From: a virus | Lineage: Duplodnaviria; Caudoviricetes | Length of the DNA stretch: 64,000 nt | Reading direction: 5' to 3' (one strand) | Virus record (IMG/VR): IMGVR_UViG_3300033233_001970 | Shown: piece after piece, positions 45,695 to 63,519 of the stretch | Position numbering within the stretch: the first letter of the stretch is position 1 | How the letters are laid out: every line of letters starts with the position of its first letter | The notes under the pieces: generated by a model | What the model saw: only the letters and a program-made list of their open reading frames with translations | What the model was told of the DNA's origin: nothing | The model's database searches: none | Position numbers and translations under genes: made by a program

Positions 45695-45997
45695 CTATTT
45701 TTCATCGCGAAGCGTCTGGTACGCCGCCCACGACAAGACGCCTACCTCGACGGCGCCCGTCGCGGCAACCGTGTAGTAAATGAGCTCTTTTCCGCGAAGT
45801 CCGGCAATAAACAGCCCTCCCGCGACAAGGGCTCCACGGCAAATCATCGAGCCCACGACGCGCGCGACGTCAACGTAGAGCTCGTGTTTGCCCTGCATGA
45901 GATCAATGGCGGTGCTTCCCGAAGGAAGACCTGGTTTGCAAACGAGATCGCTGTTTGCCAAAGAAGGATTTCGCGCGCGTGCGCGACGGCGCCTCAT
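45695..45997 (-). CDS. small membrane protein with N-terminal RNP motif
   Basis: MRRRRARARNPS...; two hydrophobic helices. Confidence 0.55.
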   Translation of the reverse strand: MRRRRARARNPSLANSDLVCKPGLPSGSTAIDLMQGKHELYVDVARVVGSMICRGALVAGGLFIAGLRGKELIYYTVAATGAVEVGVLSWAAYQTLRDEK

Positions 45998-46464
45998 GAT
46001 TTGCACCCAACTCCGTTAACGATCTCGATTTTCCACCACGGCGGGTACCGTTCGCTGTCGATGCGACGCATCATGGCGTCGATCGTTCTTCGCGGAACGC
46101 CGTGAAGACCGCGCGACGCTGCCGTTTCCGGGTCGCACCGCACGCGGATCACTTTCGACATGTACCCAAACGCCGCCGCGAGCGCCATGTAGGGAGCGAT
46201 CTCGACGGTCGACGTGTTCGTGTTGTCGACGACCACCACATGAATGCCGGACTCGATGGCGTCCAGAAAATTACGAAGGCATTCGGCGTGCGCTTCGCCT
46301 AGTTTGGATACGTCGAATTTGTATCCTTGAGGCGTTTCGAAGAAATGATCGGCGGACACGACACGCGTGCGATGCCCTTGCCCCTTGGCCGCCGCCGCGA
46401 TTTGTTTCGCGAGCGTGCTTTTGCCGGAGCCGGAGACGCCTTGCATGACGATGACTTCTTTCAC
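45994..46464 (-). CDS. AAA_33 / polynucleotide-kinase-like P-loop protein
   Basis: GVSGSGKST, SADHFF, VVVDNTN, HGVP. Confidence 0.88.
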   Translation of the reverse strand: MKEVIVMQGVSGSGKSTLAKQIAAAAKGQGHRTRVVSADHFFETPQGYKFDVSKLGEAHAECLRNFLDAIESGIHVVVVDNTNTSTVEIAPYMALAAAFGYMSKVIRVRCDPETAASRGLHGVPRRTIDAMMRRIDSERYPPWWKIEIVNGVGCKS

Positions 46465-46489
46465 GGACGAGACCTTTCGGCGGAGTATG

Positions 46490-47116
46490 TCATGGAAGTC
46501 GAACTGCTTTTTCTTCGGCTTTCGTCAGCACGACAGCCGGAAGTGTCTTAACGCCCATCCGAATCGCTTTGCCGATACGGTGCCATCCGTCGATTGGTAG
46601 AGCGCCGTACTTCGTCACGATGACGATGAGTGGAACGCGAAGTTTGATTACCTGATCTTCGACCGGAAACTCGAGATCGCGGTCAACTCGTTTCCAATCG
46701 ATGCCGACGAGAGGAGCAAGCGGTCGCAGATCGATAACCTTGAAGGTGACGAGCTTGCGCTCCGGCTTGCTCGCCAGGATCATCTTGGCTTTGCCGATGT
46801 TCCAAGCGTCCTGGCCAAACCGAAAATACTCATGCGAATGCTCGGTCGCGTTCCAGTCGGCAGGATCCCAGCGCTGAGCAGGGTTTTGAGTCACGGTATT
46901 TCTCGTCGCAAGGAGTCCGATGAGCACGCCTGTGCCACCGCCGACAAGAATGGACGAAAGAGCGTGTCCCAGGATGCCCTTGCTCTTGTCTGGACCGCCG
47001 TACTCGTCTGAAAACGACGCGAAGCCGCCCGCAACGACGCCTCCGGCCATCGCTAGGACGGCGCCCACGCCTGCCCAGACGCGTCCCGTAGGGTTTTCCA
47101 TGGCTTCGGATGTCAT
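46490..47116 (-). CDS. membrane-anchored ParB/Srx-like domain protein
   Basis: ENP plus two TM helices, then PLIV...IDGWHRIGKA...GVKTLPAVV. Confidence 0.65.
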   Translation of the reverse strand: MTSEAMENPTGRVWAGVGAVLAMAGGVVAGGFASFSDEYGGPDKSKGILGHALSSILVGGGTGVLIGLLATRNTVTQNPAQRWDPADWNATEHSHEYFRFGQDAWNIGKAKMILASKPERKLVTFKVIDLRPLAPLVGIDWKRVDRDLEFPVEDQVIKLRVPLIVIVTKYGALPIDGWHRIGKAIRMGVKTLPAVVLTKAEEKAVRLP

Positions 47117-48324
47117 TTCTCGAGCTCCGCGCGCGTCGCGGCCACGAGCTCCTGTGTCATCTCCACAAATCGACGATAATGATCGGGCGTACGAAGCATC
47201 CAATCCGGCATGCTCGTGTAGTCCGGTGCTTTCGGGTGCGCGCTGTAGATGATGACCGCGCCATCGGGACCGTGAATCGGGACGTGCCACTCGCCTTTGA
47301 ATTCGAAGTTCGGCGGGAGCATGACCACGAAGCCTTCGGGTGGAATGGAGATGCCTTTGTGTGGTCGATGGAGCTGAAAAACGGACAAATCGAGAAGGAA
47401 CGGGATGCTCTTCGTCTTACCGACGATGACAAGATGACCTGGGAATCCTGTGCCGCCGTCGCACGATTCGTCGATAATGAGAATGCGGGCTTTTTCGGGG
47501 TCGGGCTGAGCGACCGCGCCGCTCGCCCACGCGTAATACGCCGCGTTCATCGCCGCCGTGCGTGTGGGCATGGGCCGTCCCGCGATTCCAAACGGCTTCA
47601 ACGCTTCGATGCCGATTTTCGTGGCGGCGATACAGCAGTCGGGCTTGAAACACTGGCCGAGGACGCGCCACGAGACCTTCGCCATGGCCTCGAGCACCTG
47701 AAACGGATCGGTTTTGGGATTCTTTTTCGCGTAAGAGCCATACGGCCCTTCGCCACGACCTTTGATCCCGTGCGCGGTATAAAGGACGCGCTTGCGATCA
47801 ATGACTTGTCGAATTTCTTCTTTGATGGCCTCGTCCGCTTCGAAGTTGATAGCACCGCCAAGAACATTTAGACCCAACCAGCTTACTCCGTTCCAGGATT
47901 GATCCGGAAAATCACTATAGCTATTGTCTGACAAATCAATGCGCTCGTAGATTCCTACCGAAATGATCGAAACTTGTTTCGGATTATTGAGGTTGAACCA
48001 AACCTCGCCAACCAGATCGTCGTTGCTGTGTCCGTCATCTCTTGCATAAAGGAAGTTTTTTCGCATCCATCGCATTGCATTGTTTTCGATGATGAGCTCG
48101 TCCTGAACAAGCTGATCCCACCCTTCTGGCGTGAGCTCTCCCGCTGCGTTTAGCCATCCGTCTTTTTGGCCGCGAAGTCGATCGGCCGCGTCACCATATT
48201 TTAGGCCGAATCTTTCGTCGGCATTGGCTTCGATCACGTCTTCGTGATCGAAGTGCAGATCAAACGAAACAGAGCGCTCGTTTGGATCCGTGGGATTGCG
48301 ACGGTAGCGCGGAACGGTGTTCAC
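47113..48324 (-). CDS. two-domain protein; C-terminal papain/transglutaminase-like C-H-D domain
   Basis: RRNP at N-terminus, KKNP at junction; DCCIAAT...GHLVIV...LLDLS. Confidence 0.55.
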   Translation of the reverse strand: MNTVPRYRRNPTDPNERSVSFDLHFDHEDVIEANADERFGLKYGDAADRLRGQKDGWLNAAGELTPEGWDQLVQDELIIENNAMRWMRKNFLYARDDGHSNDDLVGEVWFNLNNPKQVSIISVGIYERIDLSDNSYSDFPDQSWNGVSWLGLNVLGGAINFEADEAIKEEIRQVIDRKRVLYTAHGIKGRGEGPYGSYAKKNPKTDPFQVLEAMAKVSWRVLGQCFKPDCCIAATKIGIEALKPFGIAGRPMPTRTAAMNAAYYAWASGAVAQPDPEKARILIIDESCDGGTGFPGHLVIVGKTKSIPFLLDLSVFQLHRPHKGISIPPEGFVVMLPPNFEFKGEWHVPIHGPDGAVIIYSAHPKAPDYTSMPDWMLRTPDHYRRFVEMTQELVAATRAELEK

Positions 48325-48851
48325 GACTTCACCGGACGGCCGCCATGGTACGTCACGCGCTTTCTCAGTGGCGTCGCAGGCGGAGGCGTTGTCACCTCGA
48401 AGATTTTGACCTCATCGCTACGCACTTTGCGTCCGCTCGTGCCGACGAACTCGTAGCCATCATCACTATCATCATTGTTTTCATCGTCGCCAAGATCTGC
48501 GTTGACGGGATCCGGATCATCGATGTTGTCGGCGAAGTAGCCCTCCCATCCCATTTCTTCCGCAAAATCTGCCGCGTAGTCGAGCGCCTCGTCTTCGGCG
48601 TCGGCGTTGACGAGAATGCCGTAGTTCGTGTGATCGTCGAAGCTGACGAGGTACGAACGGCGCCACGCTTTATGTTCTACGTTCGCGTACTGCCACTCTT
48701 TGCTACGCTGACCAATCAAGCGAAACGGTCGCTCGTATTCGACATTCTCGACGATGACTTTCTTGCCGCCGACGTAGTGACTCTCATTCTCATCGCCAAT
48801 GACCTTGGGCGGAGCTGCTTTCGGATTTCGGTAGCGCGGAATAGCGTTCAC
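48321..48851 (-). CDS. acidic hypothetical protein with N-terminal RYRNP
   Basis: MNAIPRYRNP parallels MNTVPRYRRNP of the next gene. Confidence 0.6.
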   Translation of the reverse strand: MNAIPRYRNPKAAPPKVIGDENESHYVGGKKVIVENVEYERPFRLIGQRSKEWQYANVEHKAWRRSYLVSFDDHTNYGILVNADAEDEALDYAADFAEEMGWEGYFADNIDDPDPVNADLGDDENNDDSDDGYEFVGTSGRKVRSDEVKIFEVTTPPPATPLRKRVTYHGGRPVKS

Positions 48852-49438
48852 CGGTACCTCCGCCCACGGCCTCGCCGTCTTGCGCGCGATAGCGCGCTAC
48901 GTTCGTATTCCTCTTCGGTCCAGCCTGCTTCATGGAAGAGACGAAGCGTGGCGTCACGTTGATCGGCACAAAACTTCCGCGCGGTCGCTTCGTCTCCGGT
49001 GAAAAAGAATGGATGCCCGCAGAAGACATTGATCTCGAGGCTCGCGGCGAGCGCTTGAAGCTCGCGATCGAGCTCGCGAAGACGCCTCCACACCTCGTCG
49101 AAGGTTTGTCGCGTTGGGTTGGGACGCACTAGCCGACCCATTTGGTACTTGGCGCGCTTTCTTGGCGTCCATCCCTTGGGGAAAAGTACAAACCGATGGC
49201 GTCCGCCCGCGAGCCGCGTCCAGCAAGCGTCGCAAGGACGTTTCGAGAAATCGCGGATGCCCTCTTCGGTTTCGCTGTCCCAGTTCGGTGAGATGTGCCC
49301 GAGCGTTCCGAGGCGCTCGGCGCCTTCCTCTATCTCGCGAACACGCTCCGGATCGTCGATACCCGAAAGATCGCCGTTGACGGCGTACATGGTGCAGTCT
49401 TGGCAAAGCCACAGCTCGTGGGTGTCATGCACGCTCAT
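48848..49438 (-). CDS. two-domain hypothetical protein (Zn motif, RPNP junction)
   Basis: CQDC...FSKRPCDAC...LAGGRH; RLVRPNP. Confidence 0.6.
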   Translation of the reverse strand: MSVHDTHELWLCQDCTMYAVNGDLSGIDDPERVREIEEGAERLGTLGHISPNWDSETEEGIRDFSKRPCDACWTRLAGGRHRFVLFPKGWTPRKRAKYQMGRLVRPNPTRQTFDEVWRRLRELDRELQALAASLEINVFCGHPFFFTGDEATARKFCADQRDATLRLFHEAGWTEEEYERSALSRARRRGRGRRYR

Positions 49439-50058
49439 GACGCGCGAGCCCTCAGCAAACCAAGTTCATGCATCGACTTGTATCCGTCACGCGCGACGAC
49501 GACATGATCGACGAGCGGCGCGCCGACTTCCTCGCCCGCACGCCGGACGCGACGTGTGAAATCGATGTCTTCTGGACTTGGTGTCGGATCGCCGCTCGGG
49601 TGGTTGTGCACGAGAATGAACGCGCTCGCGGCTTCTCGTAGCGCGATTCGCAAGGGATCGCGTACCGACACGTGAAGACCGTGAAGTCCACCCGAAGCAA
49701 TGCGGCACGCCGACCGAAGCACATTGCGGCCGTCGAGCGCCAAAAGCCACAGTTCTTCGAAATCAAGAGGGACGAGCCGAGGCTTGGCCCACGCGTACAC
49801 CGCTTCGGCTTCAGGAAACGAGTATCCCTCTGCACGCGATGCGCGCTCGAGCGCTTTGCGACCTAATTCGAGCGCAGAAACGATGCGCACGGCGGCGGCC
49901 TCGCCCACCGAAGCCGCGATTTCGCCCGTTCCTGCGCGCAAAAGACCGTCGAATCCGCCCATGTCGTGAAGCAGTTGGAGCGCGCGACGCTCTCCGATTC
50001 CGCCGACGATGGCGACGAGCTCGATCTCGCCGATATTGGAGATCGGGTTTTTGCGCAT
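49435..50058 (-). CDS. radC: RadC-family JAB-domain protein
   Basis: HhH-like N-terminus; EELWLLALD...VHNHPSGDPTPSPED...LVDHVVV. Confidence 0.92.
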   Translation of the reverse strand: MRKNPISNIGEIELVAIVGGIGERRALQLLHDMGGFDGLLRAGTGEIAASVGEAAAVRIVSALELGRKALERASRAEGYSFPEAEAVYAWAKPRLVPLDFEELWLLALDGRNVLRSACRIASGGLHGLHVSVRDPLRIALREAASAFILVHNHPSGDPTPSPEDIDFTRRVRRAGEEVGAPLVDHVVVARDGYKSMHELGLLRARAS

Positions 50059-50070: not shown

Positions 50071-50394
50071 TCAGAGGGTAATGAGATCCGAAACGGGCAT
50101 GCATTCGTCGAGCATGTTGAGTGCGTATCCTTCTGGACACGCCCCGCCCACCGGCGCTGTTTTTGTGCCTGCTTCGCCGCCGCCAGGCGTGACATTAGGA
50201 CCAGGAGCAGGTGTTCCGCCTCCTCTGCCGCCTCCTGTAGAAACAGGGGTTGGTTGCGGCGTAGAAGCAGGAACGACTGTCGCTTTCGACCTCGAAAACC
50301 ACCACACGAGCCCGCCAACGACGGCTGCGCCGCCCGCGACCCAAAGAGCGGTCGCGAGCGGAGGTGAGATCGGATTTTCTTGGAATTGAGCCAT
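50071..50394 (-). CDS. ENPISPP-family membrane-anchored protein (paralog 3)
   Basis: ENPISPPLATALWVAGGAAVVGGLVWWFSR. Confidence 0.7.
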   Translation of the reverse strand: MAQFQENPISPPLATALWVAGGAAVVGGLVWWFSRSKATVVPASTPQPTPVSTGGGRGGGTPAPGPNVTPGGGEAGTKTAPVGGACPEGYALNMLDECMPVSDLITL

Positions 50395-50398
50395 GCGC

Positions 50399-50905
50399 CT
50401 ACGACTGGCCGATCATCTGCCAGAACGGAACGGTGGTTGCCGTGAGCGTTGCGCTGGCCGTTTCGAAACCGGCGCCGCCGAGCTTGGTGTCGTCGGCCGT
50501 CGCTTCGACCTTCGCTGCGCTCGGGCCCGTGTTCGGATCGTCCTTCGGCCAATCTGCCGGAAGCGGAGTGCCGTCCACGAGATTGATCGGCGGCGAACCG
50601 GCGTACATCTTGGTCTTCGTGACCGAAAACGGCGCCGCAATCGCTTGCTCCGTTCCTTGATCGAGTTTCGAAAGATCAGGAATGCTGAAGCGGTATACTT
50701 GACCCGAGAGCAGCGGTTGTCCCTTCGGAACGCGCGCCCATGTTCCCGTCGCTGCGGGCGTTGTTGCAGGCGCAGGCTTGACGGTTGCCCCCGCAGCCTT
50801 CGGTCTCGAGAACCACCAAACGAGGCCACCTACAGCGGCAGCGGCGCCCGTGATCCAAAGAGCAGTTTTGACGGGAGGTGAAATGGGATTTTCGTCGTCG
50901 AACAT
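50399..50905 (-). CDS. ENPISPP-family membrane-anchored protein (paralog 2)
   Basis: MFDDENPISPPVKTALWITGAAAAVGGLVWWFSRP. Confidence 0.75.
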   Translation of the reverse strand: MFDDENPISPPVKTALWITGAAAAVGGLVWWFSRPKAAGATVKPAPATTPAATGTWARVPKGQPLLSGQVYRFSIPDLSKLDQGTEQAIAAPFSVTKTKMYAGSPPINLVDGTPLPADWPKDDPNTGPSAAKVEATADDTKLGGAGFETASATLTATTVPFWQMIGQS

Positions 50906-50914
50906 GATGTCCTC

Positions 50915-51364
50915 TTAGAGCTTGGGTGCGGCAGGACGAAGCACGAGCACAGCTACGGCCGTTCCGGCAGGAAGCGCTGAAGCGACTGTATAAGGCGCCG
51001 TACCGATGTACTTGCCCTGAAAAGCGACCCCGCGTGCGCTCGTGTAGGGCGGAGGCAGCGGAGCGCCCTGGGCGTACTGCCCTTGATCGAAACCGAGACT
51101 GGCCATGGATAGCTTGAATTTGGCAACATCCCCGTCGGTCCAGCCTGCGGGCGCGTCGAATGCCAAGGCGAAGTAATCGCCAGGCATGACGGTACCTGAA
51201 GCGGCCTGCGTCCACGCCATCGTGCCACCGGAACCGCCGCCGACCAGAGTGGCTTTTGCGGGCTTCGAGAAAAACCAGACGAGGCCGCCGAGAGCAGCGG
51301 CAGCACCGGTGATCCAAAGAGCGGTTTTGACGGGGGGTGAGATGGGGTTTTCGTCGTCGAACAT
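50915..51364 (-). CDS. ENPISPP-family membrane-anchored protein (paralog 1)
   Basis: MFDDENPISPPVKTALWITGAAAALGGLVWFFSKP. Confidence 0.75.
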   Translation of the reverse strand: MFDDENPISPPVKTALWITGAAAALGGLVWFFSKPAKATLVGGGSGGTMAWTQAASGTVMPGDYFALAFDAPAGWTDGDVAKFKLSMASLGFDQGQYAQGAPLPPPYTSARGVAFQGKYIGTAPYTVASALPAGTAVAVLVLRPAAPKL

Positions 51365-51456: not shown

Positions 51457-52314
51457 ATGGCACGGGACAACCTCATTTTCGGAACCAACGTCGCCTGGCG
51501 CGCGATCGGGCAGACGTACGTTGGTCGCGGGCGACTTTCTGGCGCGGAATACGTTGTACGACCGCACGTCGAAGACGGGTACATGCGGTGGATCCTGGGC
51601 GTGCGGCAAGGCACGTCGTATCGGAAACCGGAAGCTACAGGCACGTTGCAGCTTGGATCATTTCCCAACAGCGGAAAGGCTATGCTAGCGGCCGATCGCG
51701 TCGAGATGCATCCGCCAGAGGCGACGCTCGAGAATCCCGTAGGCGCGAAGAACGTCGCGCTTCTCGCTGCTGCGGGCGCTGCGGTCGGCGGACTTCTCTA
51801 TTTCCTGACTCGGCCCAAAGCAACATCGCTTCTCCATCCCGATTCGCGCGTGGCGCTTATCGGAGATTCGCTGTCGGTGGGGCTCGGGCCTGAGCTCGCG
51901 AAGATGGCTGCTGCCGAGAATATCCCTTTCAAATGGGAGGGCCACGGGGGCACCAATACCCGTCAGTGGGCAACGCACGCTGCGGCGTGCGGTCAGTGCG
52001 GCGACTGGATGACGGACTTCCGGCCGACGATATCCATTGTTGTACTTGGGACTAACGATGGCTCGGCTCCTGACGTGACCAACTACCAAACCATCCGCGA
52101 CGGCATCCGATCACTAGGCTCACAAGTGGTGTGGGTCGAACCGAATACAATGACCAAAAGCTCATTGGCTGCGGCACGCAAAATCATCGAATCGCTTGGC
52201 GTGCCTGTGGTTCCTGAAGTGCAAGTCCCCATCAACCAGGACGGCGTCCACCCTACTTCTCTCGGGTATTACGTCTGGGCACAGAAGATCTGGAAGTATC
52301 TCAAGGGTTCATGA
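51457..52314 (+). CDS. SGNH/GDSL hydrolase with internal ENP plus TM anchor
   Basis: IGDSLS (block I), GG (II), LGTND (III), DGVHP (V). Confidence 0.85.
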   Translation: MARDNLIFGTNVAWRAIGQTYVGRGRLSGAEYVVRPHVEDGYMRWILGVRQGTSYRKPEATGTLQLGSFPNSGKAMLAADRVEMHPPEATLENPVGAKNVALLAAAGAAVGGLLYFLTRPKATSLLHPDSRVALIGDSLSVGLGPELAKMAAAENIPFKWEGHGGTNTRQWATHAAACGQCGDWMTDFRPTISIVVLGTNDGSAPDVTNYQTIRDGIRSLGSQVVWVEPNTMTKSSLAAARKIIESLGVPVVPEVQVPINQDGVHPTSLGYYVWAQKIWKYLKGS

Positions 52315-52347: not shown

Positions 52348-52857
52348 ATGAATACTCCGCACGGACTCGGCCAGGCGCCCCAACCTTCTGCTCCTACGCC
52401 CACATGGGTCTGGGTCTCGGTAGGCGCCGTTGTCCTTGCCGAAATTGGTGCAGCGATTTGGTTTTTCAACCAACCGAAATCAAATCCAGCTACTCCGCGC
52501 TCGAGCTATTGGGACATCTACGAGCTCAAGATCACGCCCGTCAACAAAAACACGAGCATCACGGATGCGATGGGAATCCCAATCCGTGTTCGGCACGGCG
52601 ACTGGATCATCCGTTCGCTTCTCGCGGTGCCCAACGAATACGATCCGCAAAAACCGCGCACGATCACCTCCAAGCTCGAGCGCATCGAGCACAGCAAAAA
52701 CACAGCGATGTACGAAGCGGGCAAGCTCGCCACCGCGTACGCGAACTTCAACATCCGCAACCCGAATCCGGCACGGGTGACCGACGAGAAAGGCAAATGC
52801 ATCTTCTCTGTTGTGGGCGACCCGAGCACCAACAGAGCGGTCGAAACCACGTGCTGA
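52348..52857 (+). CDS. TM-anchored protein with one copy of the repeated NP...D-E-x-G-x-C domain
   Basis: TM helix, KSNPATP...YELKI...NPNPARVTDEKGKCIFSV. Confidence 0.65.
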   Translation: MNTPHGLGQAPQPSAPTPTWVWVSVGAVVLAEIGAAIWFFNQPKSNPATPRSSYWDIYELKITPVNKNTSITDAMGIPIRVRHGDWIIRSLLAVPNEYDPQKPRTITSKLERIEHSKNTAMYEAGKLATAYANFNIRNPNPARVTDEKGKCIFSVVGDPSTNRAVETTC

Positions 52858-54268: not shown

Positions 54269-55327
54269 ATGCAAGCCACTGCCCTCCGCTCCTATCAAAG
54301 CGCCTTCAGCTCCCCGCCAGGAGTCTACGTCGTGCATTCCGGCGACGAAGCGTACTTCCCTGCGATGGGACTCATTACGGATGGTCACGCGTTTTCGAGG
54401 TACGTCGGAGCGATTCCAGGGTTCTTGATCGCCGAGCTCACGGCACCATCGGTCGAAATTCTGACCGCCAACCGCGACGGGTTCCGAGATCGTTCGGTGT
54501 CGTACGCGGTGGATCGGCTCGCCGAGCGCATCGCCAAAGACAACATGAGCGCGCTCAAGGCAAAGAAGGGCCTCATTCGGAAGAAATACGAGGGTTCCGG
54601 CAAGTTCAAAGCCCGAAGCCTCGCGGCCAGCCTTCTTGAGCGCATCGGGCCAAGCGCAACGGCGCTTTCCACGGCCGATACCGAAGAAATCGTTGCGACG
54701 ATCGGGGACTACGCGCGTCGAGAAGAGGAGTCGCGTCGTGAGCTACGACTCCCCGCCGCGCCCGCCGCCATCGCGATGCTCGATCAGAAATTCGCGGGTC
54801 CGAACCACATCGAAGCTGCCATCAAGCAGCTCGTTTGGGAGCCTGACTTCTACCTGATGAACGACATCGAAGGATTCACCGTTCCGAAGAAGTTCTTCCC
54901 CGAGACGATGACGCCGACCATCCTGAAGCTCGCCAAGACGTGGACCGAGCTTTGCCGGTACGTGCTCATGCAGCTTGGTTCGGAAGCGCGGTTCGGAGTC
55001 GGGTTCGTGTTCTCGAACCATATGGCGGCAGCGGCGATGGAAGAGGAAGACAAAGACGGGCGGCCCGAGCCGTGGATCATGTTGAATCCTCACAAGGACA
55101 TGTACAATCTCGACGAGATTTGGCGCCCTTCGCAAAATCCCGATCTCAAATGGCTTTACGCCGCCGCGATTCACGAAGCGACACACATCGCCGATCGCAT
55201 TTCGTACCACGACGAGAGCTTCGCAGCGGCTCTTACTAGAAACATGGCCAAATGCGCGGATGGGTACCGCAAGATTCGGCAGATCGTGGACGGACTGCGG
55301 ATGCGTGGTGGGCCGGAGCTCGACTGA
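54269..55327 (+). CDS. protein with C-terminal zincin-like HExxH motif
   Basis: AAIHEATHIA...YHDESF. Confidence 0.6.
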   Translation: MQATALRSYQSAFSSPPGVYVVHSGDEAYFPAMGLITDGHAFSRYVGAIPGFLIAELTAPSVEILTANRDGFRDRSVSYAVDRLAERIAKDNMSALKAKKGLIRKKYEGSGKFKARSLAASLLERIGPSATALSTADTEEIVATIGDYARREEESRRELRLPAAPAAIAMLDQKFAGPNHIEAAIKQLVWEPDFYLMNDIEGFTVPKKFFPETMTPTILKLAKTWTELCRYVLMQLGSEARFGVGFVFSNHMAAAAMEEEDKDGRPEPWIMLNPHKDMYNLDEIWRPSQNPDLKWLYAAAIHEATHIADRISYHDESFAAALTRNMAKCADGYRKIRQIVDGLRMRGGPELD

Positions 55328-55328
55328 A

Positions 55329-56015
55329 ATGCGTCGGAAGATCCAGACGACGAACAATGCCGGCGCAGACGCCGTCACCTACGCCAAGGCTCGCGATGGA
55401 CTTTATTGGTATTTTCGTCGCTACGGCATCGACGAGAGCCGGTTCGGATGGCAGATTGAGCCGCTCGGAGGAAAGCTGGAGATCAAGTACGGAAGCAAAG
55501 TGAAAATCTATCGCGTGCCGGCGGCTCCGCTTCTCGAGCACGTGCCTGATGATCCCGCTTGGGGTTACCGTGGCATGTCCTGGGAAGAGTGGAAATTCAT
55601 CCGCATCGAGAAACGTATCGAGAGCCTGTACGCGCACAACTTGGGCGAAGAGCAAACAGGTTTCACATTCTTCGGCAAGGCAAGCCAAGCAGAATCCTAC
55701 GCTTCGGGTTTCGCGCCGCTGCCGTACTTGCCGGCCTTTCGCCGACCAGGTGTTGTTGTCGCTGTACCGCGAGAGCTTTTGCTTACGCACAAGGACAGGC
55801 CCAAGGCCATTCCGGGCTCGGAGTTGGCCGCGTTCGGGGCGTTGCCAGCAAGTGTCATTGGCGGCGTGTGGTACCTCATTCCGAATCGCATTCGGTTTGG
55901 GGCGCTAGACATTGTACTCGATCTTCTCTCCAACGTTACGCGATGGACGGACGGCAGCCGACACAACCCAAGCGTGAGCTACATCGTGTATCATGAGGCG
56001 TCCCATGCGACGTAA
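55329..56015 (+). CDS. hypothetical protein (YRGMS motif; possibly ADP-ribosyltransferase-like fold)
   Basis: GYRGMSWEEW...TFF...AESYA...VVVAV...SEL loosely follows the ART R-S-E layout. Confidence 0.4.
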   Translation: MRRKIQTTNNAGADAVTYAKARDGLYWYFRRYGIDESRFGWQIEPLGGKLEIKYGSKVKIYRVPAAPLLEHVPDDPAWGYRGMSWEEWKFIRIEKRIESLYAHNLGEEQTGFTFFGKASQAESYASGFAPLPYLPAFRRPGVVVAVPRELLLTHKDRPKAIPGSELAAFGALPASVIGGVWYLIPNRIRFGALDIVLDLLSNVTRWTDGSRHNPSVSYIVYHEASHAT

Positions 56016-56805
56016 CCCAGAAATCAAAAAACTTCTAGGCACCCTCGACAGCCCGCCAGGCAACGGCGGATTCGTCTACGAGGTTCAGGGAGACTCCACA
56101 ACCTGGCACGAGCTTGAATGGATTGTCCGTAAAGGAAAAAAGTGGCGGGTCTACACGGTGCCTTTGGATCAAGAAATTCCTCACTGGGGCAATCTTGCCG
56201 AGGCCGCAGGATCCGTCGGGATCAGTTTCGTCGAGCTCGGCAGAAGATTCGAGAGCGATGATCCGATGGAGCGAGCGAACGCATGGGAGATTTACGGCGA
56301 TTCCGAAGGCTGGGATGAAGTCGATGACACGTGGGAGGAGCTCGACGCGGACGAAGTCAACGACCGGTACTCGCTCGCCGTACCTGTCAAAGATCCAGTT
56401 CCGACAAAAATCCCGCCGCTCGACAATTTCACCGATGCGTACATCACGGCCGCGCTCTGGTCGACGAACGACGAATCAACACCGGCGGGCGGTGTACCGC
56501 TCGATCAGAACTACGGCATTCACGACATCCACCGCGACACGCTCAAGAAGATGATCGAGGACTGCGAGCGATTTCAGGCGATGAACATGCACGATCTCGA
56601 TCTCGCGTATCAACACAGCGGCGGACACGGCGGGTACGCTCCAGGCAACGCGGGCCATGATTTTTGGTTGACGCGCGGTGGCCATGGCACAGGATTCTGG
56701 GACCGTGGACTTGGCGACGTCGGCGACCGGCTCACGAAAGTGTCGGAAAAGTTCGGTGAATTCAATCTCTACGTCGGCGACGACGGGAAGATTCACGGTT
56801 CGTGA
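55993..56805 (+). CDS. two-domain phage protein (RRNP start; C-terminal GHDFWLTR...HGTGFWDR domain)
   Basis: N-domain paralogous to 53155; C-domain AYITAALWS...AGHDFWLTRGGHGTGFWDR is a recurrent phage family. Confidence 0.7.
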   Translation: MRRPMRRNPEIKKLLGTLDSPPGNGGFVYEVQGDSTTWHELEWIVRKGKKWRVYTVPLDQEIPHWGNLAEAAGSVGISFVELGRRFESDDPMERANAWEIYGDSEGWDEVDDTWEELDADEVNDRYSLAVPVKDPVPTKIPPLDNFTDAYITAALWSTNDESTPAGGVPLDQNYGIHDIHRDTLKKMIEDCERFQAMNMHDLDLAYQHSGGHGGYAPGNAGHDFWLTRGGHGTGFWDRGLGDVGDRLTKVSEKFGEFNLYVGDDGKIHGS

Positions 56806-57173
56806 GCCTCTGGCTTTCACCGCAAAAACCTTCGCTCGTGAAGCTCGAGCGCTTCGCTTGGTATCCGCACTTTCTCGACAACCTCGAAGACACGCTCATG
56901 GGTCATCGAGGAAAACCTGGCTTGCCGGAATACGTCACCGTTCGGTGGAAGAAGTACGACAAATTTCTTTTCACCATTGAGACCGATGACGAAGAAGACG
57001 ATCAGGAAGAATGGGCGTTTATCGATCACGTTGCAGAGCTCATCGGGGGCGGCGCCGATGTTCCGCCACTTGTTGCGCGACGCAATCGTCCTGAAGACGG
57101 CATTCATCGCGCATGGGCGGCGCGTAAGCTCGGACTCGAGGTCGCGCCGGTGATCGATCTCACAGAGATGTGA
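56802..57173 (+). CDS. ParB/Srx-like small protein
   Basis: VPPLV...EDGIHRAWAARKLGLEVAPV. Confidence 0.6.
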   Translation: MSLWLSPQKPSLVKLERFAWYPHFLDNLEDTLMGHRGKPGLPEYVTVRWKKYDKFLFTIETDDEEDDQEEWAFIDHVAELIGGGADVPPLVARRNRPEDGIHRAWAARKLGLEVAPVIDLTEM

Positions 57174-58037: not shown

Positions 58038-59471
58038 ATGAAAATCCACAACGTCCGCCTCGGCCTCGCCACGAACTCGAGCTCGACCCACTCGATCATC
58101 TTCACGAAGAACCGCGTGAAGGACAAAGACGTCGAGGGGCGCGAATTCGGCTGGGATCTTTGGACTGCTGCCTCGAAAGAAGCGAAGCGGCAGTACGTCG
58201 CGATCCATCTCCTTCACGCCATTCGTGGCCAGGTCTCCAAGGACGTCGCCGATGCGGTGCTCGAGCAGTGGATCCCAGGCGTCGAGCGTCCGGTGAAGGA
58301 AGACGACGAATTCGCATGGGACGAACAGGTTCGCGGCTACGTCGATCATCAGTCGGAATACGTGCTCCCGCGTGCGTGGGACGGCGCGGGTGTCGACAAG
58401 GCGTTCTTCGAGGACTTCCGCGACTTCTTCCTTCGTGACGACGTCGTCATCCTCGGCGGCAACGACAACGACGACGAGACTCACGAGCTCGGTAAGGGTT
58501 TCGTGCTCCCCATCACACGGGACGGCGGCGCAGGCGATATGGTCGCGCGCAAAGACGAACAGGGCGGCTATTGGACGCTCTTCGATCGCAACGACGGTAC
58601 TAAGATTCGGTTCTCGTTCGACACGCCAACTTCGAGAAAAGAAGTCACAAAGGCGTCCGCGCCAGAGCTTGTCGACATCAAGATCACCGACTTCTGTCCC
58701 TACAACTGCGCGTTTTGCTACCAGGGCTCGACCGGCGGCGGCAAACACGCCGATGTCGGCATGTTCTACCGCATTGCAGAAACGCTCGGACAGCTCCGCG
58801 TCTTCGAAGTTGCCATCGGCGGCGGCGAACCGACGCTTCACCCGAAGTTTCTCCAGATTCTCGACGCATTCAAGAGCCGTGGCATCGTCGCGAATTTCAC
58901 GACGAAGAATCTCGCGTGGCTCCGCGATGCGATGGCGTGGCCGAAGATCATGGAAAAGATCGGCGCATTCGCGTTTTCGGTCGATGACGAAAAAGACGTC
59001 GAGCAGCTCGCCGCGCTTCTCGAGGTGAACGGCATCGACACAAGCCAAGCGTCCGTGCAGTACGTCATGGGCTCCACCGACGTCTACAAGATGGAGCGGA
59101 TTATCGAGAAAGCGGCCGACGCCCGTCTTCGCATCACGCTCCTCGGCTACAAGACGACAGGACGTGGTTCGAGCTTCAAGCCGCAGCCGTACAAGGACTG
59201 GGTCAAGCGCGTCAAGAAGCTCTACGAACAGAAGCACTATTTCACGCTCGGCATCGACACCGCACTCGCCAAGGAAAGTGGTGGCGAGCTCGCCGACGAA
59301 CGCATCCCGACCAAGCTCTACGCGACGGACGAAGGCAAGTTCTCGATGTACATCGATGCGGTCGACGGAAAAATCGCGGCGTCGTCCTACGTCGAGGACA
59401 TCGCGATGAAACGCGCGGATCTCCAGAATCTCACCAAAGAGAAGCTCGTCGCGGCGTTCGCGGAGTGGTGA
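58038..59471 (+). CDS. radical SAM protein fused to an N-terminal TNSSS-motif domain
   Basis: MKIHNVRLGLATNSSSTHS; CPYNCAFC (CxxxCxxC); GGGEPTLHP; NFTT. Confidence 0.88.
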   Translation: MKIHNVRLGLATNSSSTHSIIFTKNRVKDKDVEGREFGWDLWTAASKEAKRQYVAIHLLHAIRGQVSKDVADAVLEQWIPGVERPVKEDDEFAWDEQVRGYVDHQSEYVLPRAWDGAGVDKAFFEDFRDFFLRDDVVILGGNDNDDETHELGKGFVLPITRDGGAGDMVARKDEQGGYWTLFDRNDGTKIRFSFDTPTSRKEVTKASAPELVDIKITDFCPYNCAFCYQGSTGGGKHADVGMFYRIAETLGQLRVFEVAIGGGEPTLHPKFLQILDAFKSRGIVANFTTKNLAWLRDAMAWPKIMEKIGAFAFSVDDEKDVEQLAALLEVNGIDTSQASVQYVMGSTDVYKMERIIEKAADARLRITLLGYKTTGRGSSFKPQPYKDWVKRVKKLYEQKHYFTLGIDTALAKESGGELADERIPTKLYATDEGKFSMYIDAVDGKIAASSYVEDIAMKRADLQNLTKEKLVAAFAEW

Positions 59472-60094: not shown

Positions 60095-60430
60095 ATGATG
60101 ACTGGCAAAGAAGCGGTTCGGATCATCAACGACTCCCTGAGCCGGTCAGGACGAACGAAATTTCGAAGAGCTACACGATCTCGTGGGTACAAATGCTGTC
60201 GCGACCATCGACGCACTTCAGGCGCTCACGACAGCGATCGAATACGCCATGCTTCTGCGCATGTAATGGACTGCATGTGCCAGACGTGCGGACGCGAATT
60301 TCATCTCTTGGTTCGTGCGTCGGAGTACGCCTCCGAAGCCGAATCGAACGAAGCGCCTCGGCTCTGCCCGCGCTGTTGGAAAGCGCAGCCCAAACCACCT
60401 AACCGCCCTCCGTTCCACGAAAATGACTGA
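60095..60430 (+). CDS. hypothetical protein with C-terminal Zn ribbon
   Basis: CQTCGREF...PRLCPRC. Confidence 0.4.
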   Translation: MMTGKEAVRIINDSLSRSGRTKFRRATRSRGYKCCRDHRRTSGAHDSDRIRHASAHVMDCMCQTCGREFHLLVRASEYASEAESNEAPRLCPRCWKAQPKPPNRPPFHEND

Positions 60431-60896
60431 ACGCGATCCTGACCCGTACGTGATGTACATCGTCGTGCGTAGGAGCTTGAAGCTCTCCGCTGGCAAAGTC
60501 GGCGCGCAGTGTGGTCACGCCGTCCAGTACCTCATGCAAGAATTTTTGCCCGAGAGATGGCCCACCAGAGACGAGGCGAAGCTCCTGTCACGAAAGGTTG
60601 CCGGAACGCTTACCGACGAAGAACGCACCCGCTTCGAGGCGTTGGAAAAAGAGAAAGACGACCGATACGAACGTTGCGTTACGGCCGGCGAATGGCTTAA
60701 GGGCGATCACGCGAAAATCATCCTCGGCGCGAGCGACGACGAGTTCATGAAAGTGCAGCTCGAGAACGAGCACTTCTTCATGGTCGTCGACCTCGGGTAC
60801 ACCCAGGTTGCGCCTGACACTGAGACGTCGCTCGGCTTATGGCCGATGAGAAAAAGCGCAGCGTCGGAAACCGTCAAGACATTGAGACCGTTGTAA
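60423..60896 (+). CDS. pth2: peptidyl-tRNA hydrolase, PTH2 family
   Basis: MYIVVRRSLKLSAGKVGAQCGHA...W...KIIL...VVDLGYTQVAPDTETSLGLWP. Confidence 0.88.
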   Translation: MTERDPDPYVMYIVVRRSLKLSAGKVGAQCGHAVQYLMQEFLPERWPTRDEAKLLSRKVAGTLTDEERTRFEALEKEKDDRYERCVTAGEWLKGDHAKIILGASDDEFMKVQLENEHFFMVVDLGYTQVAPDTETSLGLWPMRKSAASETVKTLRPL

Positions 60897-60950: not shown

Positions 60951-61157
60951 ATGAACGAACACATTCTGCAATTCTTCGTATGGGAACACCTTCCCGAACA
61001 TCTCGCTGAGGTGAGCAAGCCGTTCGGCGAGCTCGCGAACCAGATCGTCGCGACGCTGCCGCGCAATCAGGAGCGCACCGTGGCGCTTCGCAAGCTGCTT
61101 GAGGCGAAGGACGCGGCGGTTCGCGCAAAGCTCGCGAAGGAAGACGTCACGAAGTAA
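60951..61157 (+). CDS. small helical phage protein (possible Acb2/Tad1-like hairpin)
   Basis: ILQFF...HLP-HL--VSKPF...LPRNQERTVALRKLLEAKDAAVRA; RBS GGGAG; the family link is tentative. Confidence 0.6.
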   Translation: MNEHILQFFVWEHLPEHLAEVSKPFGELANQIVATLPRNQERTVALRKLLEAKDAAVRAKLAKEDVTK

Positions 61158-61210
61158 CGGTTTTCGTTCCGCAACGTCAACGGCTTTCGTTGATGGTAGT
61201 ATCGGTGACG

Positions 61211-62311
61211 ATGCGTCGCCGTTCGAACCCTTACACGTCGCCGTGGACAGTGATCGAATACCGAATCACCCGTCGCCTGATCGACGGGATCGTGTATCTG
61301 GTTCTTCTCGAGCTCGTACAAGAGCCTGGCGAAAAACCGACGACTGCGGTGTACACGTGGCACGCTTCTAGAGCCGACCTCATAAAAACAGCAAAATTTA
61401 CCATACAAAACGCAGCGAGGCGCGAGAGAAACAGTCCGATTCCGGTTCGCTTGTTCGATGAGCGCGGCCAATGCCTCTACGCCGCGCGTAACAAGATGAT
61501 GCCGCCGAGCCACGACCCGAAATGGGGCTTGATCGGACAACGTCCTACGCCGTCGTGGGAAGAAATTCCGTGCGACGCGCGGCCAAACCCGCATGCCAGC
61601 AGGAAGCAGAACCCGATCTACTTCGACGATCTGCCGCTCGCGGAACGTCAGCGACACGCACAACTGTGGCGTGCGTCAATCGCGAAGCTTCGCGATCTGC
61701 CGTATCCGTTTCAGGCGACGTTCGACGGCGAGCGTATCACCGTGCTCGGTCGCGTACGGGATTTCGAACCCTACACAAGTCATCCATGCCAACAAGCTGA
61801 AGCTACCGACGAATCGATGATGGTTCGTGGATCGGATGGCAAGAAGTTCATCGTCTTCGGCCACAGCTTGTTCGTCGGCGACCAACGCCTCGTGTACCAG
61901 TCCGGCTACCGCCGCCGTCCTGTAGTTGATCCTTTGGGACTAGGATGGAAAGAAAACCCCGTCGGCGTCTTCATCTACGATCTCGACGCGCTCGACAAGC
62001 TCGCGGCGATGGAAGGCCAGGATTGGCTCAAAGACGATCGTCGTATGTGGGAACGGTACCGTAGCGGCAATACAGCGCACGCGTTCGTAACGGCGTGGAA
62101 GTTCACACGCCATCTCTCGCCGGAAGATTCGATCTATTGGAAAGACTATTTCGCGGGCGAGACAGGTGTGGAGCTCGGCGTCATCTACGGTAACGGCGGC
62201 TACGCGAGGTACGCCGTATCCAGCGAAGGTGAGATTCGGCTCGATCCAGGATCGACACGACCAGAGAAGGTAGCTCGAGCTCTCGGGCTAGGGTTTCGGG
62301 TGCCGCGATGA
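61211..62311 (+). CDS. modular protein with NP-delimited domains
   Basis: RRRSNPYT..., RPNP/KQNP, KENP junctions; first domain is a copy of the repeated domain. Confidence 0.7.
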   Translation: MRRRSNPYTSPWTVIEYRITRRLIDGIVYLVLLELVQEPGEKPTTAVYTWHASRADLIKTAKFTIQNAARRERNSPIPVRLFDERGQCLYAARNKMMPPSHDPKWGLIGQRPTPSWEEIPCDARPNPHASRKQNPIYFDDLPLAERQRHAQLWRASIAKLRDLPYPFQATFDGERITVLGRVRDFEPYTSHPCQQAEATDESMMVRGSDGKKFIVFGHSLFVGDQRLVYQSGYRRRPVVDPLGLGWKENPVGVFIYDLDALDKLAAMEGQDWLKDDRRMWERYRSGNTAHAFVTAWKFTRHLSPEDSIYWKDYFAGETGVELGVIYGNGGYARYAVSSEGEIRLDPGSTRPEKVARALGLGFRVPR

Positions 62312-63519
62312 AACGCAGTCAAGAATGTGCACGTATCCTCGCGAAGAACGCGGGCGCCGTCGAGTGCCGTCGCAACCGCATGAGCGGCACCATCATTACG
62401 CTCTACGACGGAATCGCGGCCGGCATCGAGTCGGATCCGGAGCTACGCTGGTGTACCGTCTGCGAAGATCACTCGACACTCACCTGCCACTCGTCGCTTT
62501 CGCTCGCGCGCCGTCACATGGCAGTGCCGGAATGGTGCGAGGAGTGTCAGGCGATCATGGAGTCGAGGAAATCGAATCCGTACACACCCTCATCAACCGA
62601 TGAACAATACTTTGATTACAAAGTCATCCACTACCCTGTGTATTCGAGCGCCGGTCTGCGCAAACAAGGCTGGCGAGTAGAGGCGGCTCAGTTTACACCC
62701 GGTCAGCAGCCACATTTCTACTGGCCTGACGATCAAGGATTCGAGTTCGAGAAGCATTTAGATGCGATCGATCATGCCAAGTGGCGTGCCCAAGGTGCCG
62801 CTATTGCCGGTGATCATGCGCGCGTACTCGACGAAGCTGGGCGTTGTGTGGTTGCGTACAAACATCAACCACCTGACAACGCTATCGAAGTGTCTTGCGG
62901 CGCCGTTCGATCGAACCCCTGCACGCCAGGCTGGCCCGTCTACGAATTTCGTGTTCGTCAACGCGGTTCCGATCGCTGGTGCATTCAACTCATGACGCAG
63001 CTTCCTGGGCAAGCTCCACGGTTCGAAGAGTTCGGGTGTGGTTCCCTCGGTTTCATGTCGACGAGGGACTGGGCCATTGCCGGCGCAGAACAAGAAGCGT
63101 GGGAGCATTCGCGAAGAGAAGCTTCCAACCCGAACGCGGTGCTCGTTCGCGATGAGCGTGGACGGTGCGTACACGCGTTCGTGGGTGGTGAGCGCGTGGA
63201 GTGTCCTTCGTACCGAGCCAATCCGTACACGCCAAGCTGGCCGCGTTACGAGCTCAAGGTCGAAGCAGCCGAGAGCTACATCGACCGTCACCAGAGTCGC
63301 CGCATCGTATACAAATGGAAAATCACGATGCTCACGTGGACGCCCGAGGGAAAACCGAAATTTCAAGAAATAGGTTTTTCTGGCGATCTCGGTAAAGCCG
63401 AGAGAATCGCCTTTGACTACGCGAACAAACTTCACAGCAAAGAACCGCGCAACCCGAACGACATTCGCGTTTTCAACAATGCAGGCAAGTGCATTTTCTC
63501 GATTCAAGGAGCTTGCTGA
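62308..63519 (+). CDS. modular protein: Zn-binding N-domain plus three tandem copies of an unrecognised ~100-aa domain
   Basis: WCTVCEDH...WCEECQ; repeats begin KSNPYTP, RSNPCTP, RANPYTP and end DEAGRCV, DERGRCV, NNAGKCI. Confidence 0.75.
   Translation: MKRSQECARILAKNAGAVECRRNRMSGTIITLYDGIAAGIESDPELRWCTVCEDHSTLTCHSSLSLARRHMAVPEWCEECQAIMESRKSNPYTPSSTDEQYFDYKVIHYPVYSSAGLRKQGWRVEAAQFTPGQQPHFYWPDDQGFEFEKHLDAIDHAKWRAQGAAIAGDHARVLDEAGRCVVAYKHQPPDNAIEVSCGAVRSNPCTPGWPVYEFRVRQRGSDRWCIQLMTQLPGQAPRFEEFGCGSLGFMSTRDWAIAGAEQEAWEHSRREASNPNAVLVRDERGRCVHAFVGGERVECPSYRANPYTPSWPRYELKVEAAESYIDRHQSRRIVYKWKITMLTWTPEGKPKFQEIGFSGDLGKAERIAFDYANKLHSKEPRNPNDIRVFNNAGKCIFSIQGAC

What the first reader, a model, noticed from the sequence alone, without database searches (positions are those of the whole stretch)
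45695..63519. Recurrent [R/K/E]-x(0,1)-N-P motif marks N-termini and domain junctions of at least 14 unrelated proteins
Seen: ARARNP (45695), AMENP and TQNP (46490), RYRRNP and AKKNP (47113), RYRNP (48321), VRPNP (48848), MRKNP (RadC), QENP/DENP x3 (50071-51364), TLENP (SGNH), PKSNP (52348), MRRNP (55993), RRSNP/RPNP/KQNP/KENP (61211), KSNP/RSNP/RANP (62308). The motif sits at the extreme N-terminus or between domains and is not seen in this position in the 1-43 kb genes. ENP is usually followed by a TM helix, whereas basic-NP precedes soluble domains. Inference: an element-encoded protein-sorting or proteolytic maturation signal (for example capsid packaging or prohead-protease cleavage of polyprotein-like injected effectors) that has even been grafted onto RadC.
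Basis: partly seen in the sequence, partly recalled or inferred. Interest (0 to 1): 0.78.

Follow-up and report, generated by a model that had tools for sequence, protein, structure and literature searches.

The report
Asn-Pro seams between phage protein modules
In a 20-kb block of accessory genes of a huge uncultivated phage, the dipeptide Asn-Pro occurs three times more often than expected and sits at the starts and seams of swappable protein modules; it looks like a recognition or cutting mark, but no cutting or sorting has been shown.

Summary
In the genes of 45.3-64 kb, NP occurs 30 times against 10.8 expected and is the strongest dipeptide outlier (z 5.9, next 3.1). Nine of 28 proteins carry NP in their first 16 residues against 0.7 expected; none of 48 genes called in 1-45 kb does. 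The signal is at protein level: in-frame AAYCC 30 against 8 and 8 out of frame, and all synonymous codons are used.

About half of the sites come from two paralogous families (a Gly/Ala-rich membrane anchor and a ~100-aa module starting NPxTP). After collapsing families the N-terminal excess still holds (6 of 25 against 0.6, P 4e-5).

NP marks module boundaries:
- One protein has an MRRPMRRNP leader that its close homologues lack.
- Two unrelated neighbouring genes share only MNxxPRYR(R)NP.
- A homologue in another metagenome at 41% identity keeps PRNP.
- A DNA homology block shared by two relatives ends exactly at the NP codons.
- A stand-alone homologue starts MP where the fused form has NP.

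No protease, cleavage or packaging evidence was found. NP also lies in a folded loop and at C-termini. Earlier scan notes (unchecked) report similar NP seams in four other phage genomes. I found no description in the literature I could search.

The parts
45965..45970 (-). N-terminal NP of g45695 (45695-46006): MQIMRRRRARAR-NP. Residue 13, or residue 10 counted from the ATG at M4.
47090..47095 (-). NP of g46490, followed by a Gly/Ala-rich hydrophobic helix. It is residue 8 (MTSEAME-NP) if translation starts at ATG 47116, which overlaps the stop of g47113 (ATGA).
48292..48297 (-). N-terminal NP of g47113 (47113-48324): MNTVPRYRR-NP. Conserved as MPNKPR-NP in the 41%-identical homologue P0002 from another metagenome.
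47716..47721 (-). Internal KK-NP of g47113 (residue 202). It lies between the N-domain, whose homology to P0002 ends at residue 161, and a C-terminal domain with conserved-looking Cys and His.
   Evidence: The domain fold is not established.
48822..48827 (-). N-terminal NP of g48321 (48321-48851): MNAIPRYR-NP. It shares only these 11 residues (25 of 30 aligned bases) with the neighbouring g47113.
49115..49120 (-). Internal RP-NP of g48848 (residue 107), downstream of the region matched by phrog_3034 (residues 3-85).
50044..50049 (-). N-terminal NP of the RadC-like protein (49435-50058): MRK-NP-ISNIG.
   Evidence: PF04002, E 1e-31
50371..50376 (-). N-terminal E-NP-ISPP followed by a Gly/Ala-rich helix in g50071. 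Member of the anchor family.
50885..50890 (-). N-terminal DE-NP-ISPP followed by a Gly/Ala-rich helix in g50399. Anchor family.
51344..51349 (-). N-terminal DE-NP-ISPP followed by a Gly/Ala-rich helix in g50915. Anchor family.
51733..51738 (+). LE-NP in front of the anchor-family helix and the SGNH/GDSL-like domain of g51424. Residue 104 of the longest ORF, or residue 10 counted from ATG 51706.
52483..52488 (+). KS-NP-ATP of g52348: the seam between the anchor helix and one copy of the ~100-aa module.
56014..56019 (+). N-terminal NP of g55993: MRRPMRR-NP-EIKKLLGTLD. The leader is absent from the full-length homologues P0004-P0009, which start M[RK]xIGTIG.
61226..61231 (+). RS-NP-YTSPW: start of the module copy at the N-terminus of g61190.
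61586..61615 (+). RP-NP-HASRKQ-NP: two NPs in the linker after the module of g61190 (residues 133 and 141).
61955..61960 (+). KE-NP-VGVFIYDLD: start of the third domain of g61190. The stand-alone homologue P0273 (63% identical) starts MPVYIGDPD at this point.
62575..62580 (+). KS-NP-YTP: start of module copy 1 of g62308.
62914..62919 (+). RS-NP-CTP: start of module copy 2 of g62308.
63220..63225 (+). RA-NP-YTP: start of module copy 3 of g62308. N, P and T are invariant in 14 module copies.
63451..63456 (+). PR-NP-N loop inside the module. The same loop occurs at 63127-63132 and 52759-52770. It lies between the helix and the last two strands of a confident model, so this NP is structural and not a seam.

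Best explanation
Asn-Pro is the boundary mark of exchangeable protein modules in this phage's accessory proteins. It is selected at protein level and lies in short exposed leaders, inter-module linkers and a few tails. My preferred reading is that it is a short recognition motif for a trans-acting processing factor. That factor would cut at or next to Asn-Pro, so that multi-module proteins are split into their modules and short leaders are trimmed, much as giant-phage maturation proteases cut many head proteins at one simple motif.

Shown here: the enrichment, its position at boundaries, its conservation and grafting, and a recombination break at the NP codons.

Inferred only: that anything binds or cuts the motif.
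For: 1. The excess is specific and at protein level.
2. NP is conserved where little else is. N, P and T of NPxTP are invariant in 14 module copies of 26-50% identity, yet the first ~8-10 residues are the only low-confidence part of a pLDDT-92 model (block mean 58). PRNP is kept in a 41%-identical homologue from another metagenome.
3. The tag can be independent of the fold. The g55993 leader is absent from its homologues. g47113 and g48321 share only the 11-residue leader.
4. Multi-module relatives from other metagenomes carry NP at successive seams between different domain types. P0216: A-NP-module, GCA-NP-domain, VVK-NP-domain, LVK-NP-helix, PI-NP. P0258 is similar.
5. The 230-nt, 88%-identical DNA block shared by L005 and L006 ends exactly at AAGAACCC (K-N-P). 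After it the two genes continue with unrelated modules.
6. The stand-alone homologue P0273 starts MP where g61190 has NP. A cut between N and P would therefore give the same N-terminus.
7. Precedents exist. One-motif processing of many giant-phage head proteins is known (PMC10052503). Asn|Pro scission is known in FlhB/YscU, in reovirus mu1 at Asn-42 (PMC3207474; grouped with the Asn-Pro cleavers in PMC10328401) and in RsgI (PMC10328401). The domain set resembles that of polyvalent proteins (PMC5512222).
Against: - No protease family was found in the window. Only an HExxH motif in g54269 and a Cys/His pattern in g47113 were seen, by eye.
- Leaders of 3-12 residues are shorter than most known propeptides (20-254 residues in SPN3US, PMC10052503).
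- NP also occurs in a folded loop of the module, and at or near C-termini (...KKNPNP*...RPNPSK*; in relatives ...TCNP*...LSNP*), where cutting would be pointless.
- In anchor proteins with an acidic N-tail the NP may lie on the other side of the membrane from the NP of soluble proteins.
- Two loci that hold homologues of g55993 show no NP excess: L001 13 against 13.0 and L002 19 against 19.3. L001 comes from the same sample as the window's phage, so only L002 is clearly another genome.
- There are no proteomic data.
Confidence: 0.38

Rival explanations
1. NP is a passive structural seam. It is a chain-breaking, turn- or helix-starting dipeptide that insulates neighbouring modules. It spread because these genes evolve by module shuffling, fusion and fission. 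Nothing binds or cuts it.
For: - Many NPs precede helices with acidic N2/N3 residues: NP-EIKK, NP-EYDD, NP-DLKW, and NP-LDEAD in relatives.
- NP precedes hydrophobic helices in several genomes.
- A recombination break lies exactly at NP.
- C-terminal NP ends fit gene fission at a seam.
- About half of the sites are inherited within two families.
Against: - It does not explain why Asn-Pro alone is chosen. DP, SP, TP and EP are near or below expectation.
- It does not explain why the 1-45 kb genes of the same genome lack the excess.
- It does not explain why a leader plus NP was added to g55993, or why two unrelated genes share it.
- Many NPs are followed by Pro-rich extended stretches (NP-ISPP, NP-YTP, NP-KAAPP, NP-TDP) rather than helices.
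Confidence: 0.33
2. NP is an address or docking motif without cleavage. A short linear motif in exposed termini and linkers binds one hub, for example a capsid-interior, portal or membrane factor, and so brings the tagged proteins to one place.
For: - Of the readings considered, this one fits all three positions: N-terminal leaders, linkers and C-terminal tails.
- The context is basic (R or K at position -1 or -2).
- The motif is invariant but modelled with low confidence.
- Capsid-targeting leaders are known in T4 (stated in PMC10052503).
Against: - No partner has been identified.
- Two specified residues carry little binding information.
- Membrane-anchored and soluble carriers would have to meet the same partner.
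- A three-residue leader (MRK-NP) is hardly an address.
Confidence: 0.12
3. NP undergoes self-cleavage by asparagine cyclisation. The Asn side chain attacks its own peptide bond to Pro, as in the asparagine peptide lyases, without any protease.
For: Asn|Pro is the scissile bond in FlhB/YscU (N|PTH) (PMC3207474), in RsgI, and in reovirus mu1, which is cut at Asn-42 (PMC3207474) and is grouped with the Asn-Pro cleavers in PMC10328401. It would explain the lack of a recognisable protease. P0273 starts MP where the fused form has NP.
Against: - Known cases need a strained turn inside one specific fold. Here the flanks are unrelated (helix, module, RadC, three-residue leaders).
- NPTH never occurs.
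- The seam NP of the module lies in a low-confidence tail, not in a turn.
Confidence: 0.07
4. The pattern is chance plus paralogy, or a DNA-level signal (a site AAYCC) that only happens to read as NP.
For: Two paralogous families supply about half of the sites.
Against: - The family-collapsed N-terminal excess has P 4e-5, using longest-ORF starts.
- NP is the single strongest dipeptide outlier.
- AAYCC is 30 in frame against 8 and 8 out of frame.
- Synonymous codons are used freely.
- There is no flanking base conservation.
Confidence: 0.02

Closest known systems
One-motif proteolytic maturation of giant-phage head and ejection proteins (SPN3US gp245, PMC10052503, which reports cleaved homologues in phiKZ and 201phi2-1; T4 gp21 from my own knowledge)
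   Same: One very short motif recurs in many unrelated proteins of one phage. It lies near N-termini and at several internal sites of larger proteins. In T4 the leaders can also act as capsid-targeting sequences.
   Different: The known motifs end in Glu at P1, not in Asn-Pro. Most known propeptides are 20-254 residues, against 3-12 here. The known substrates are head proteins next to a recognisable prohead protease. Here the carriers are accessory or membrane proteins, and no such protease or any proteomic evidence is at hand.
Polyvalent proteins of phages and conjugative elements (Iyer et al. 2017, PMC5512222)
   Same: These are arrays of swappable conflict-type domains (RadC, ParB-like, kinases, peptidases), proposed to be processed and delivered with the DNA. 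Part of that repertoire is present here, as single genes or as 2-4-module proteins.
   Different: I did not find a conserved junction dipeptide mentioned in the passages of that paper that I searched. The metallopeptidase (MPTase) domain it proposes for processing was not detected here. Most modules here are separate genes.
Asparagine peptide lyases and other Asn|Pro self-cleaving proteins (FlhB/YscU N|PTH and reovirus mu1, PMC3207474; RsgI, PMC10328401)
   Same: The same scissile dipeptide, Asn-Pro. In RsgI the site also lies next to a transmembrane helix.
   Different: Each known case is one site in one dedicated fold. Here the dipeptide recurs in front of many unrelated folds and in unstructured leaders.
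Junction motifs of polymorphic toxins (VENN of CdiA, DPxGL of Rhs); from my own knowledge, not checked here
   Same: A short conserved peptide demarcates exchangeable cassettes, and recombination breakpoints fall at it.
   Different: Those motifs separate one constant region from one variable toxin tip. Here every module of several types carries the mark, including at the N-terminus of single-module genes.
2A 'StopGo' peptides of eukaryotic viruses (D-x-E-x-NPGP); from my own knowledge
   Same: E-NP at the junctions of a viral multi-protein product.
   Different: NP is never followed by Gly here, let alone by Gly-Pro. 2A is not known to work on bacterial ribosomes.

Membership tests
Prohead-protease maturation system of large phages | A prohead protease gene (T4 gp21, HK97 gp4 or ClpP type) in the genome | tested here: inconclusive
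   No peptidase family was found among 28 proteins of 45-64 kb or among 10 large proteins of 1-45 kb. The rest of the 246-kb genome is not held.
Prohead-protease maturation system of large phages | The same motif in the major capsid, portal or scaffold proteins, and cleaved termini seen by mass spectrometry | not testable with these tools
   No structural head gene lies in the window or in L010. There are no proteomic data.
Asparagine peptide lyase family N6 (FlhB/YscU) | An N|PTH motif inside the conserved four-strand/four-helix domain | tested here: not met
   None of the 30 NP sites reads NPTH. The flanking folds are unrelated to each other.
2A/StopGo peptide | A C-terminal NPGP | tested here: not met
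   No NP is followed by G.
Polyvalent proteins (PMC5512222) | Two to fifteen conflict-type domains in one polypeptide of a phage or conjugative element | tested here: inconclusive
   RadC is present (PF04002, E 1e-31). g47113, g61190 and g62308 have 2-4 modules, but the modules belong to no described family and most domains are separate genes.
Polyvalent proteins (PMC5512222) | A processing metallopeptidase (MPTase) domain | tested here: inconclusive
   g54269 has HEATH (HExxH) but no Pfam or PHROG match even at E 5.
Twin-arginine (Tat) signal peptide | An RR motif followed by a hydrophobic h-region | tested here: not met
   After RR-NP in g47113 and g55993 the best 18-residue hydropathy is -0.17 and 0.25, against 1.5-2.1 for the anchor helices.
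Sortase B-type NPxTx sorting signal | The motif near the C-terminus, followed by a hydrophobic stretch and a basic tail that end the protein | tested here: not met
   NP plus helix plus RPK lies at the N-terminus and is followed by domains of 100 residues or more.

The most novel reading that the evidence does not exclude
Asn-Pro is the punctuation of a processing system for modular proteins that has not been described and is shared by several unrelated groups of uncultivated phages. Modules would be exchanged at NP seams and afterwards released by scission of the Asn-Pro bond, either by a dedicated enzyme not yet recognised or by Asn cyclisation. If so, gene fusion, fission and shuffling would all yield the same mature products.
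Probability: 0.22. Interest if true: 0.85.

Novelty: new variant of a known kind. Interest (0 to 1): 0.62.

Why it matters
If the mark is read by a factor, it would define a simple two-residue grammar by which large phages build, exchange and mature accessory and effector proteins. It would also give a sequence rule for splitting hundreds of uncharacterised phage proteins into functional modules. It is directly testable by expression and N-terminal mass spectrometry.

Even as a passive seam it is useful. It predicts domain boundaries in proteins without known relatives, and it shows module shuffling with breakpoints at a fixed dipeptide.

Tried and rejected
Searches and fetches that gave nothing:
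- Megablast of 45-63.9 kb against phage records: no match.
- Viral-contig scans with g47113 and with the module alignment: nothing. The wide module alignment was too diverged to scan with.
- Whole genome not held. Exact-protein look-ups for P0001 and P0129 were not on record. P0002 and P0258 returned gene tables but no DNA.
- Two attempts to walk further along the contig returned no DNA.
- The record behind L002 could not be searched.

Structure work:
- AlphaFold of g47113 from a single sequence failed (pLDDT 36), so its domain boundary and the suggested Cys-His peptidase fold remain untested.
- Sequence search of its C-domain against the PDB gave nothing below E 0.1.
- Foldseek of the module model found no fold at E <= 0.001.

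Ideas rejected:
- DNA-level motif.
- Rare-codon pausing. AAT is only marginally raised (P 0.054) and Pro codons are normal.
- Tat signal, 2A peptide, NPTH and a sortase signal.
- N-terminal NP as a general habit of phage proteins. In two broad families it is no stronger than other dipeptides (12 against 2.8, ranked eighth; 4 against 2.8).
- BLAST HSP starts cluster at NP (25 of 38 against 7.4), but this is dominated by the one module family, so I do not count it as independent.

Literature: searches for an Asn-Pro cleavage or junction motif in phages found nothing relevant.

Full report
**Setting.** The window is part of a 246,055-bp contig that earlier scan notes call a large phage-like sediment contig. 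It has no near match among deposited phage records. The whole genome is not held. An independently assembled ENA contig of the same phage (L010, 119.6 kb) is identical over the 11,693 overlapping bases. It gave external gene calls for 52.3-63.5 kb and 10 kb beyond the window end.

- In 28 genes of 45.3-64 kb, NP occurs 30 times against 10.8 expected from each protein's own composition.
- Nine proteins have NP in the first 16 residues of the longest ORF, against 0.71 expected (P 7e-8). A tenth (g46490) joins if the ATG that overlaps the upstream stop codon is used.
- Among all dipeptides NP is the top outlier (z 5.9; next 3.1). With the next 10 kb it is 52 against 19.0 (z 7.6).
- The 48 genes I could call in 1-45 kb have 11 against 12.8 expected and no N-terminal NP. 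Those gene calls are incomplete.
- The signal is not a DNA word. AAYCC is in frame 30 times against 8 and 8 out of frame. AAT and AAC are used 15:15, all four Pro codons are used in ordinary proportion, and there is no flanking base conservation.
- Other x-Pro dipeptides (DP, SP, TP, EP) are near or below expectation.

**How much is paralogy?** All-against-all BLASTP shows three things.
- An anchor family with (E)-NP, about ten residues, then a Gly/Ala-rich helix ending W/F-F-x-[RK]-P-K. It occurs in g50071, g50399, g50915, g51424 and g52348.
- A ~100-aa module that starts [KR]-[SA]-NP-[YC]-TP. There is one copy in g52348, one in g61190 and three in g62308.
- A paralogous pair, g53083 and g55993.
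So the '14 unrelated proteins' are about 9-10 independent families. After collapsing, 6 of 25 families still have an N-terminal NP against 0.61 expected (P 4e-5). The rule that E-NP precedes a membrane helix holds in 5 of 6 cases, but four of those five belong to the one anchor family and the fifth (g46490) resembles it only by eye.

**What the motif marks.** Several independent lines place NP at the starts of modules and show that it is kept for its own sake.
1. In 14 module copies (26-50% identical; five from this window, one from just beyond it, eight from other metagenomes) N, P and T of NPxTP are invariant. In an AlphaFold model of pLDDT 92, however, the first ~8-10 residues are the only low-confidence part (block mean 58). 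A second NP in the module (R-NP-N) lies in a confident loop and is simply structural.
2. g55993 begins MRRPMRR-NP-EIKKLLGTLD. Its 46-49%-identical full-length homologues begin M[RK]xIGTIG, so the leader with NP is an addition.
3. The adjacent and otherwise unrelated g47113 and g48321 share only MNx[VI]PRYR(R)NP.
4. The 41%-identical homologue of g47113 from another metagenome starts MPNKPR-NP, aligned with PRYRR-NP.
5. Multi-module relatives found by an exhaustive HMMER search have NP at successive seams between different kinds of domain. P0216 reads MHAVA-NP-module...GCA-NP-PRRRAIYYQG domain...VVK-NP-domain...LVK-NP-helix...PI-NP. P0258 and P0129 are similar. P0129 is a gene of this same phage just past the window.
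6. The RRAIYYQG domain is N-terminal in P0125 but internal in P0216. The shared DNA block (230 nt, 88% identical) ends exactly at AAG-AAC-CC, that is K-N-P, and after it the two genes continue with unrelated modules.
7. P0273, a stand-alone homologue (63% identical) of the third domain of g61190, starts MPVYIGDPD where g61190 reads KE-NP-VGVFIYDLD.
8. g48848 has RP-NP at residue 107, after the part matched by phrog_3034 (residues 3-85). KK-NP at residue 202 of g47113 lies after the end of homology to P0002 at residue 161.

**Spread.**
- Loci from other metagenomes that carry the module (L005, L006, L009) have a moderate overall excess: 33 against 19.0, P 0.002. They again show NP in front of Gly/Ala-rich helices.
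- Two loci that hold homologues of g55993 show no excess: L001 13 against 13.0, L002 19 against 19.3. L001 comes from the same sample as the window's phage and may even be another part of it.
- In two broad protein families, N-terminal NP is not stronger than other dipeptides.
- So the feature is strong in this gene block and weaker or patchy in relatives.
- Earlier notes of this scan, which I did not check, describe similar '(P/V)-R-x-N-P' seams in four other phage genomes. The local contexts PRYRR-NP, PR-NP, ARP-NP and EPR-NP resemble that consensus.

**Facts that do not fit a simple leader-cleavage story.**
- Proteins of this phage end ...KKSSKK-NP-NP* and ...PPARP-NP-SK* (2 of 37 against 0.3 expected, P 0.04). 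Relatives end ...GVTC-NP* and ...APLS-NP*.
- Leaders can be three residues long (MRK-NP in the RadC-like protein).
- The anchor proteins have acidic N-tails and basic residues after the helix. By the positive-inside rule this suggests the tail with NP faces outward, unlike the NP of soluble proteins. That is an inference.
- No peptidase family was detected. By eye I saw only an HExxH motif in g54269 and a Cys/His pattern in the C-domain of g47113. The fold of that C-domain could not be modelled.

**Interpretation.** The data establish a protein-level, boundary-associated dipeptide that travels with swappable modules and is sometimes added to proteins. They do not establish what reads it.
- I rank first (0.38) a recognition motif for processing at or next to Asn-Pro. 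The pattern of one tiny motif at N-terminal leaders and at every seam of multi-module proteins is what viral polyproteins and giant-phage head proteins show (PMC10052503). The MP/NP correspondence and the free exchange of modules at NP fit mature products that begin at Pro. The Asn-Pro bond is a proven scissile bond (PMC3207474, PMC10328401). The gene content also resembles the polyvalent-protein repertoire, for which processing and delivery with the DNA were proposed (PMC5512222).
- A passive structural seam is nearly as likely (0.33).
- Next come a docking address without cleavage (0.12) and self-cleavage by Asn cyclisation (0.07).
- Chance, paralogy alone or a DNA-level signal are excluded by the tests above (0.02).

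**Novelty.** I found no paper describing an Asn-Pro junction or leader motif in phage proteins. The idea of a maturation or junction motif is known. The dipeptide, its position in front of every module type and its occurrence in accessory and membrane proteins are new as far as I could search.

Noticed in passing
window 54269-55327 (+) and 55260-56015 (+): g54269 contains HEATH (HExxH) near its C-terminus but matches no Pfam or PHROG family. The next ORF, g55260, ends ...VYHEASHAT* with a second HExxH at its extreme C-terminus, overlapping the start of g55993 in another frame. It could be a truncated or frameshifted metallopeptidase-like gene.
   Followed up: partly
window 44123-45280 (-); L010 16726-19074 (-) and 19269-20945 (-): Three long, Gly-rich, fibre-like proteins share the N-terminal peptide M(V)RHRDESIRRPEIDLAIARAN and then diverge. 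They flank the NP-rich gene block on both sides.
   Followed up: no
window 60315-60896 (+): A Pth2-type peptidyl-tRNA hydrolase (PF01981, E 3e-16). Earlier notes report another Pth2 gene with unusual tRNAs elsewhere in this genome, and L009 also has a Pth2-like gene.
   Followed up: no
window 62335-62571 (+), residues 10-88 of g62308: The N-terminal Cys-rich domain (...W.TVCE.H......S...A...M..P.WC..C) belongs to a very large family of small proteins of unknown function. It accounts for most of the 713 HMMER hits at E <= 0.001. NP is not clearly enriched in that family (34 against 22).
   Followed up: partly
window 46490-46700 (-) and 56802-57173 (+): Both proteins contain a DG(W/I)HR-type motif (PIDGWHRIGKA and PEDGIHRAWAA) that looks like the ParB/sulfiredoxin-type nuclease motif. 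Pfam found nothing.
   Followed up: no
L005 7874-8410 and L006 8351-9637: A recently exchanged domain cassette: 230 nt at 88% identity, placed at the N-terminus of one gene and in the middle of another, with the 3' breakpoint inside the Asn-Pro codons.
   Followed up: yes
L009 1150-5313 (-): A contig that carries a homologue of the third domain of g61190 also encodes Cas9 (994 aa), Cas1 and Cas2 next to phage-like small genes.
   Followed up: no
window 58038-59471 (+): A radical SAM protein of 477 aa (PF04055, E 7.5e-13; CPYNCAFC) with a ~200-residue N-terminal extension of unknown kind, in the middle of the NP-rich block.
   Followed up: no
L005 6177-6818 (-) and L006 6561-7199 (-): The relatives encode a protein whose N-terminus (LGCGE[FY]GCAF...VLKV) looks like the glycine loop and lysine of a Hanks-type protein kinase. 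Many NP seams are followed by [ST]-P.
   Followed up: no
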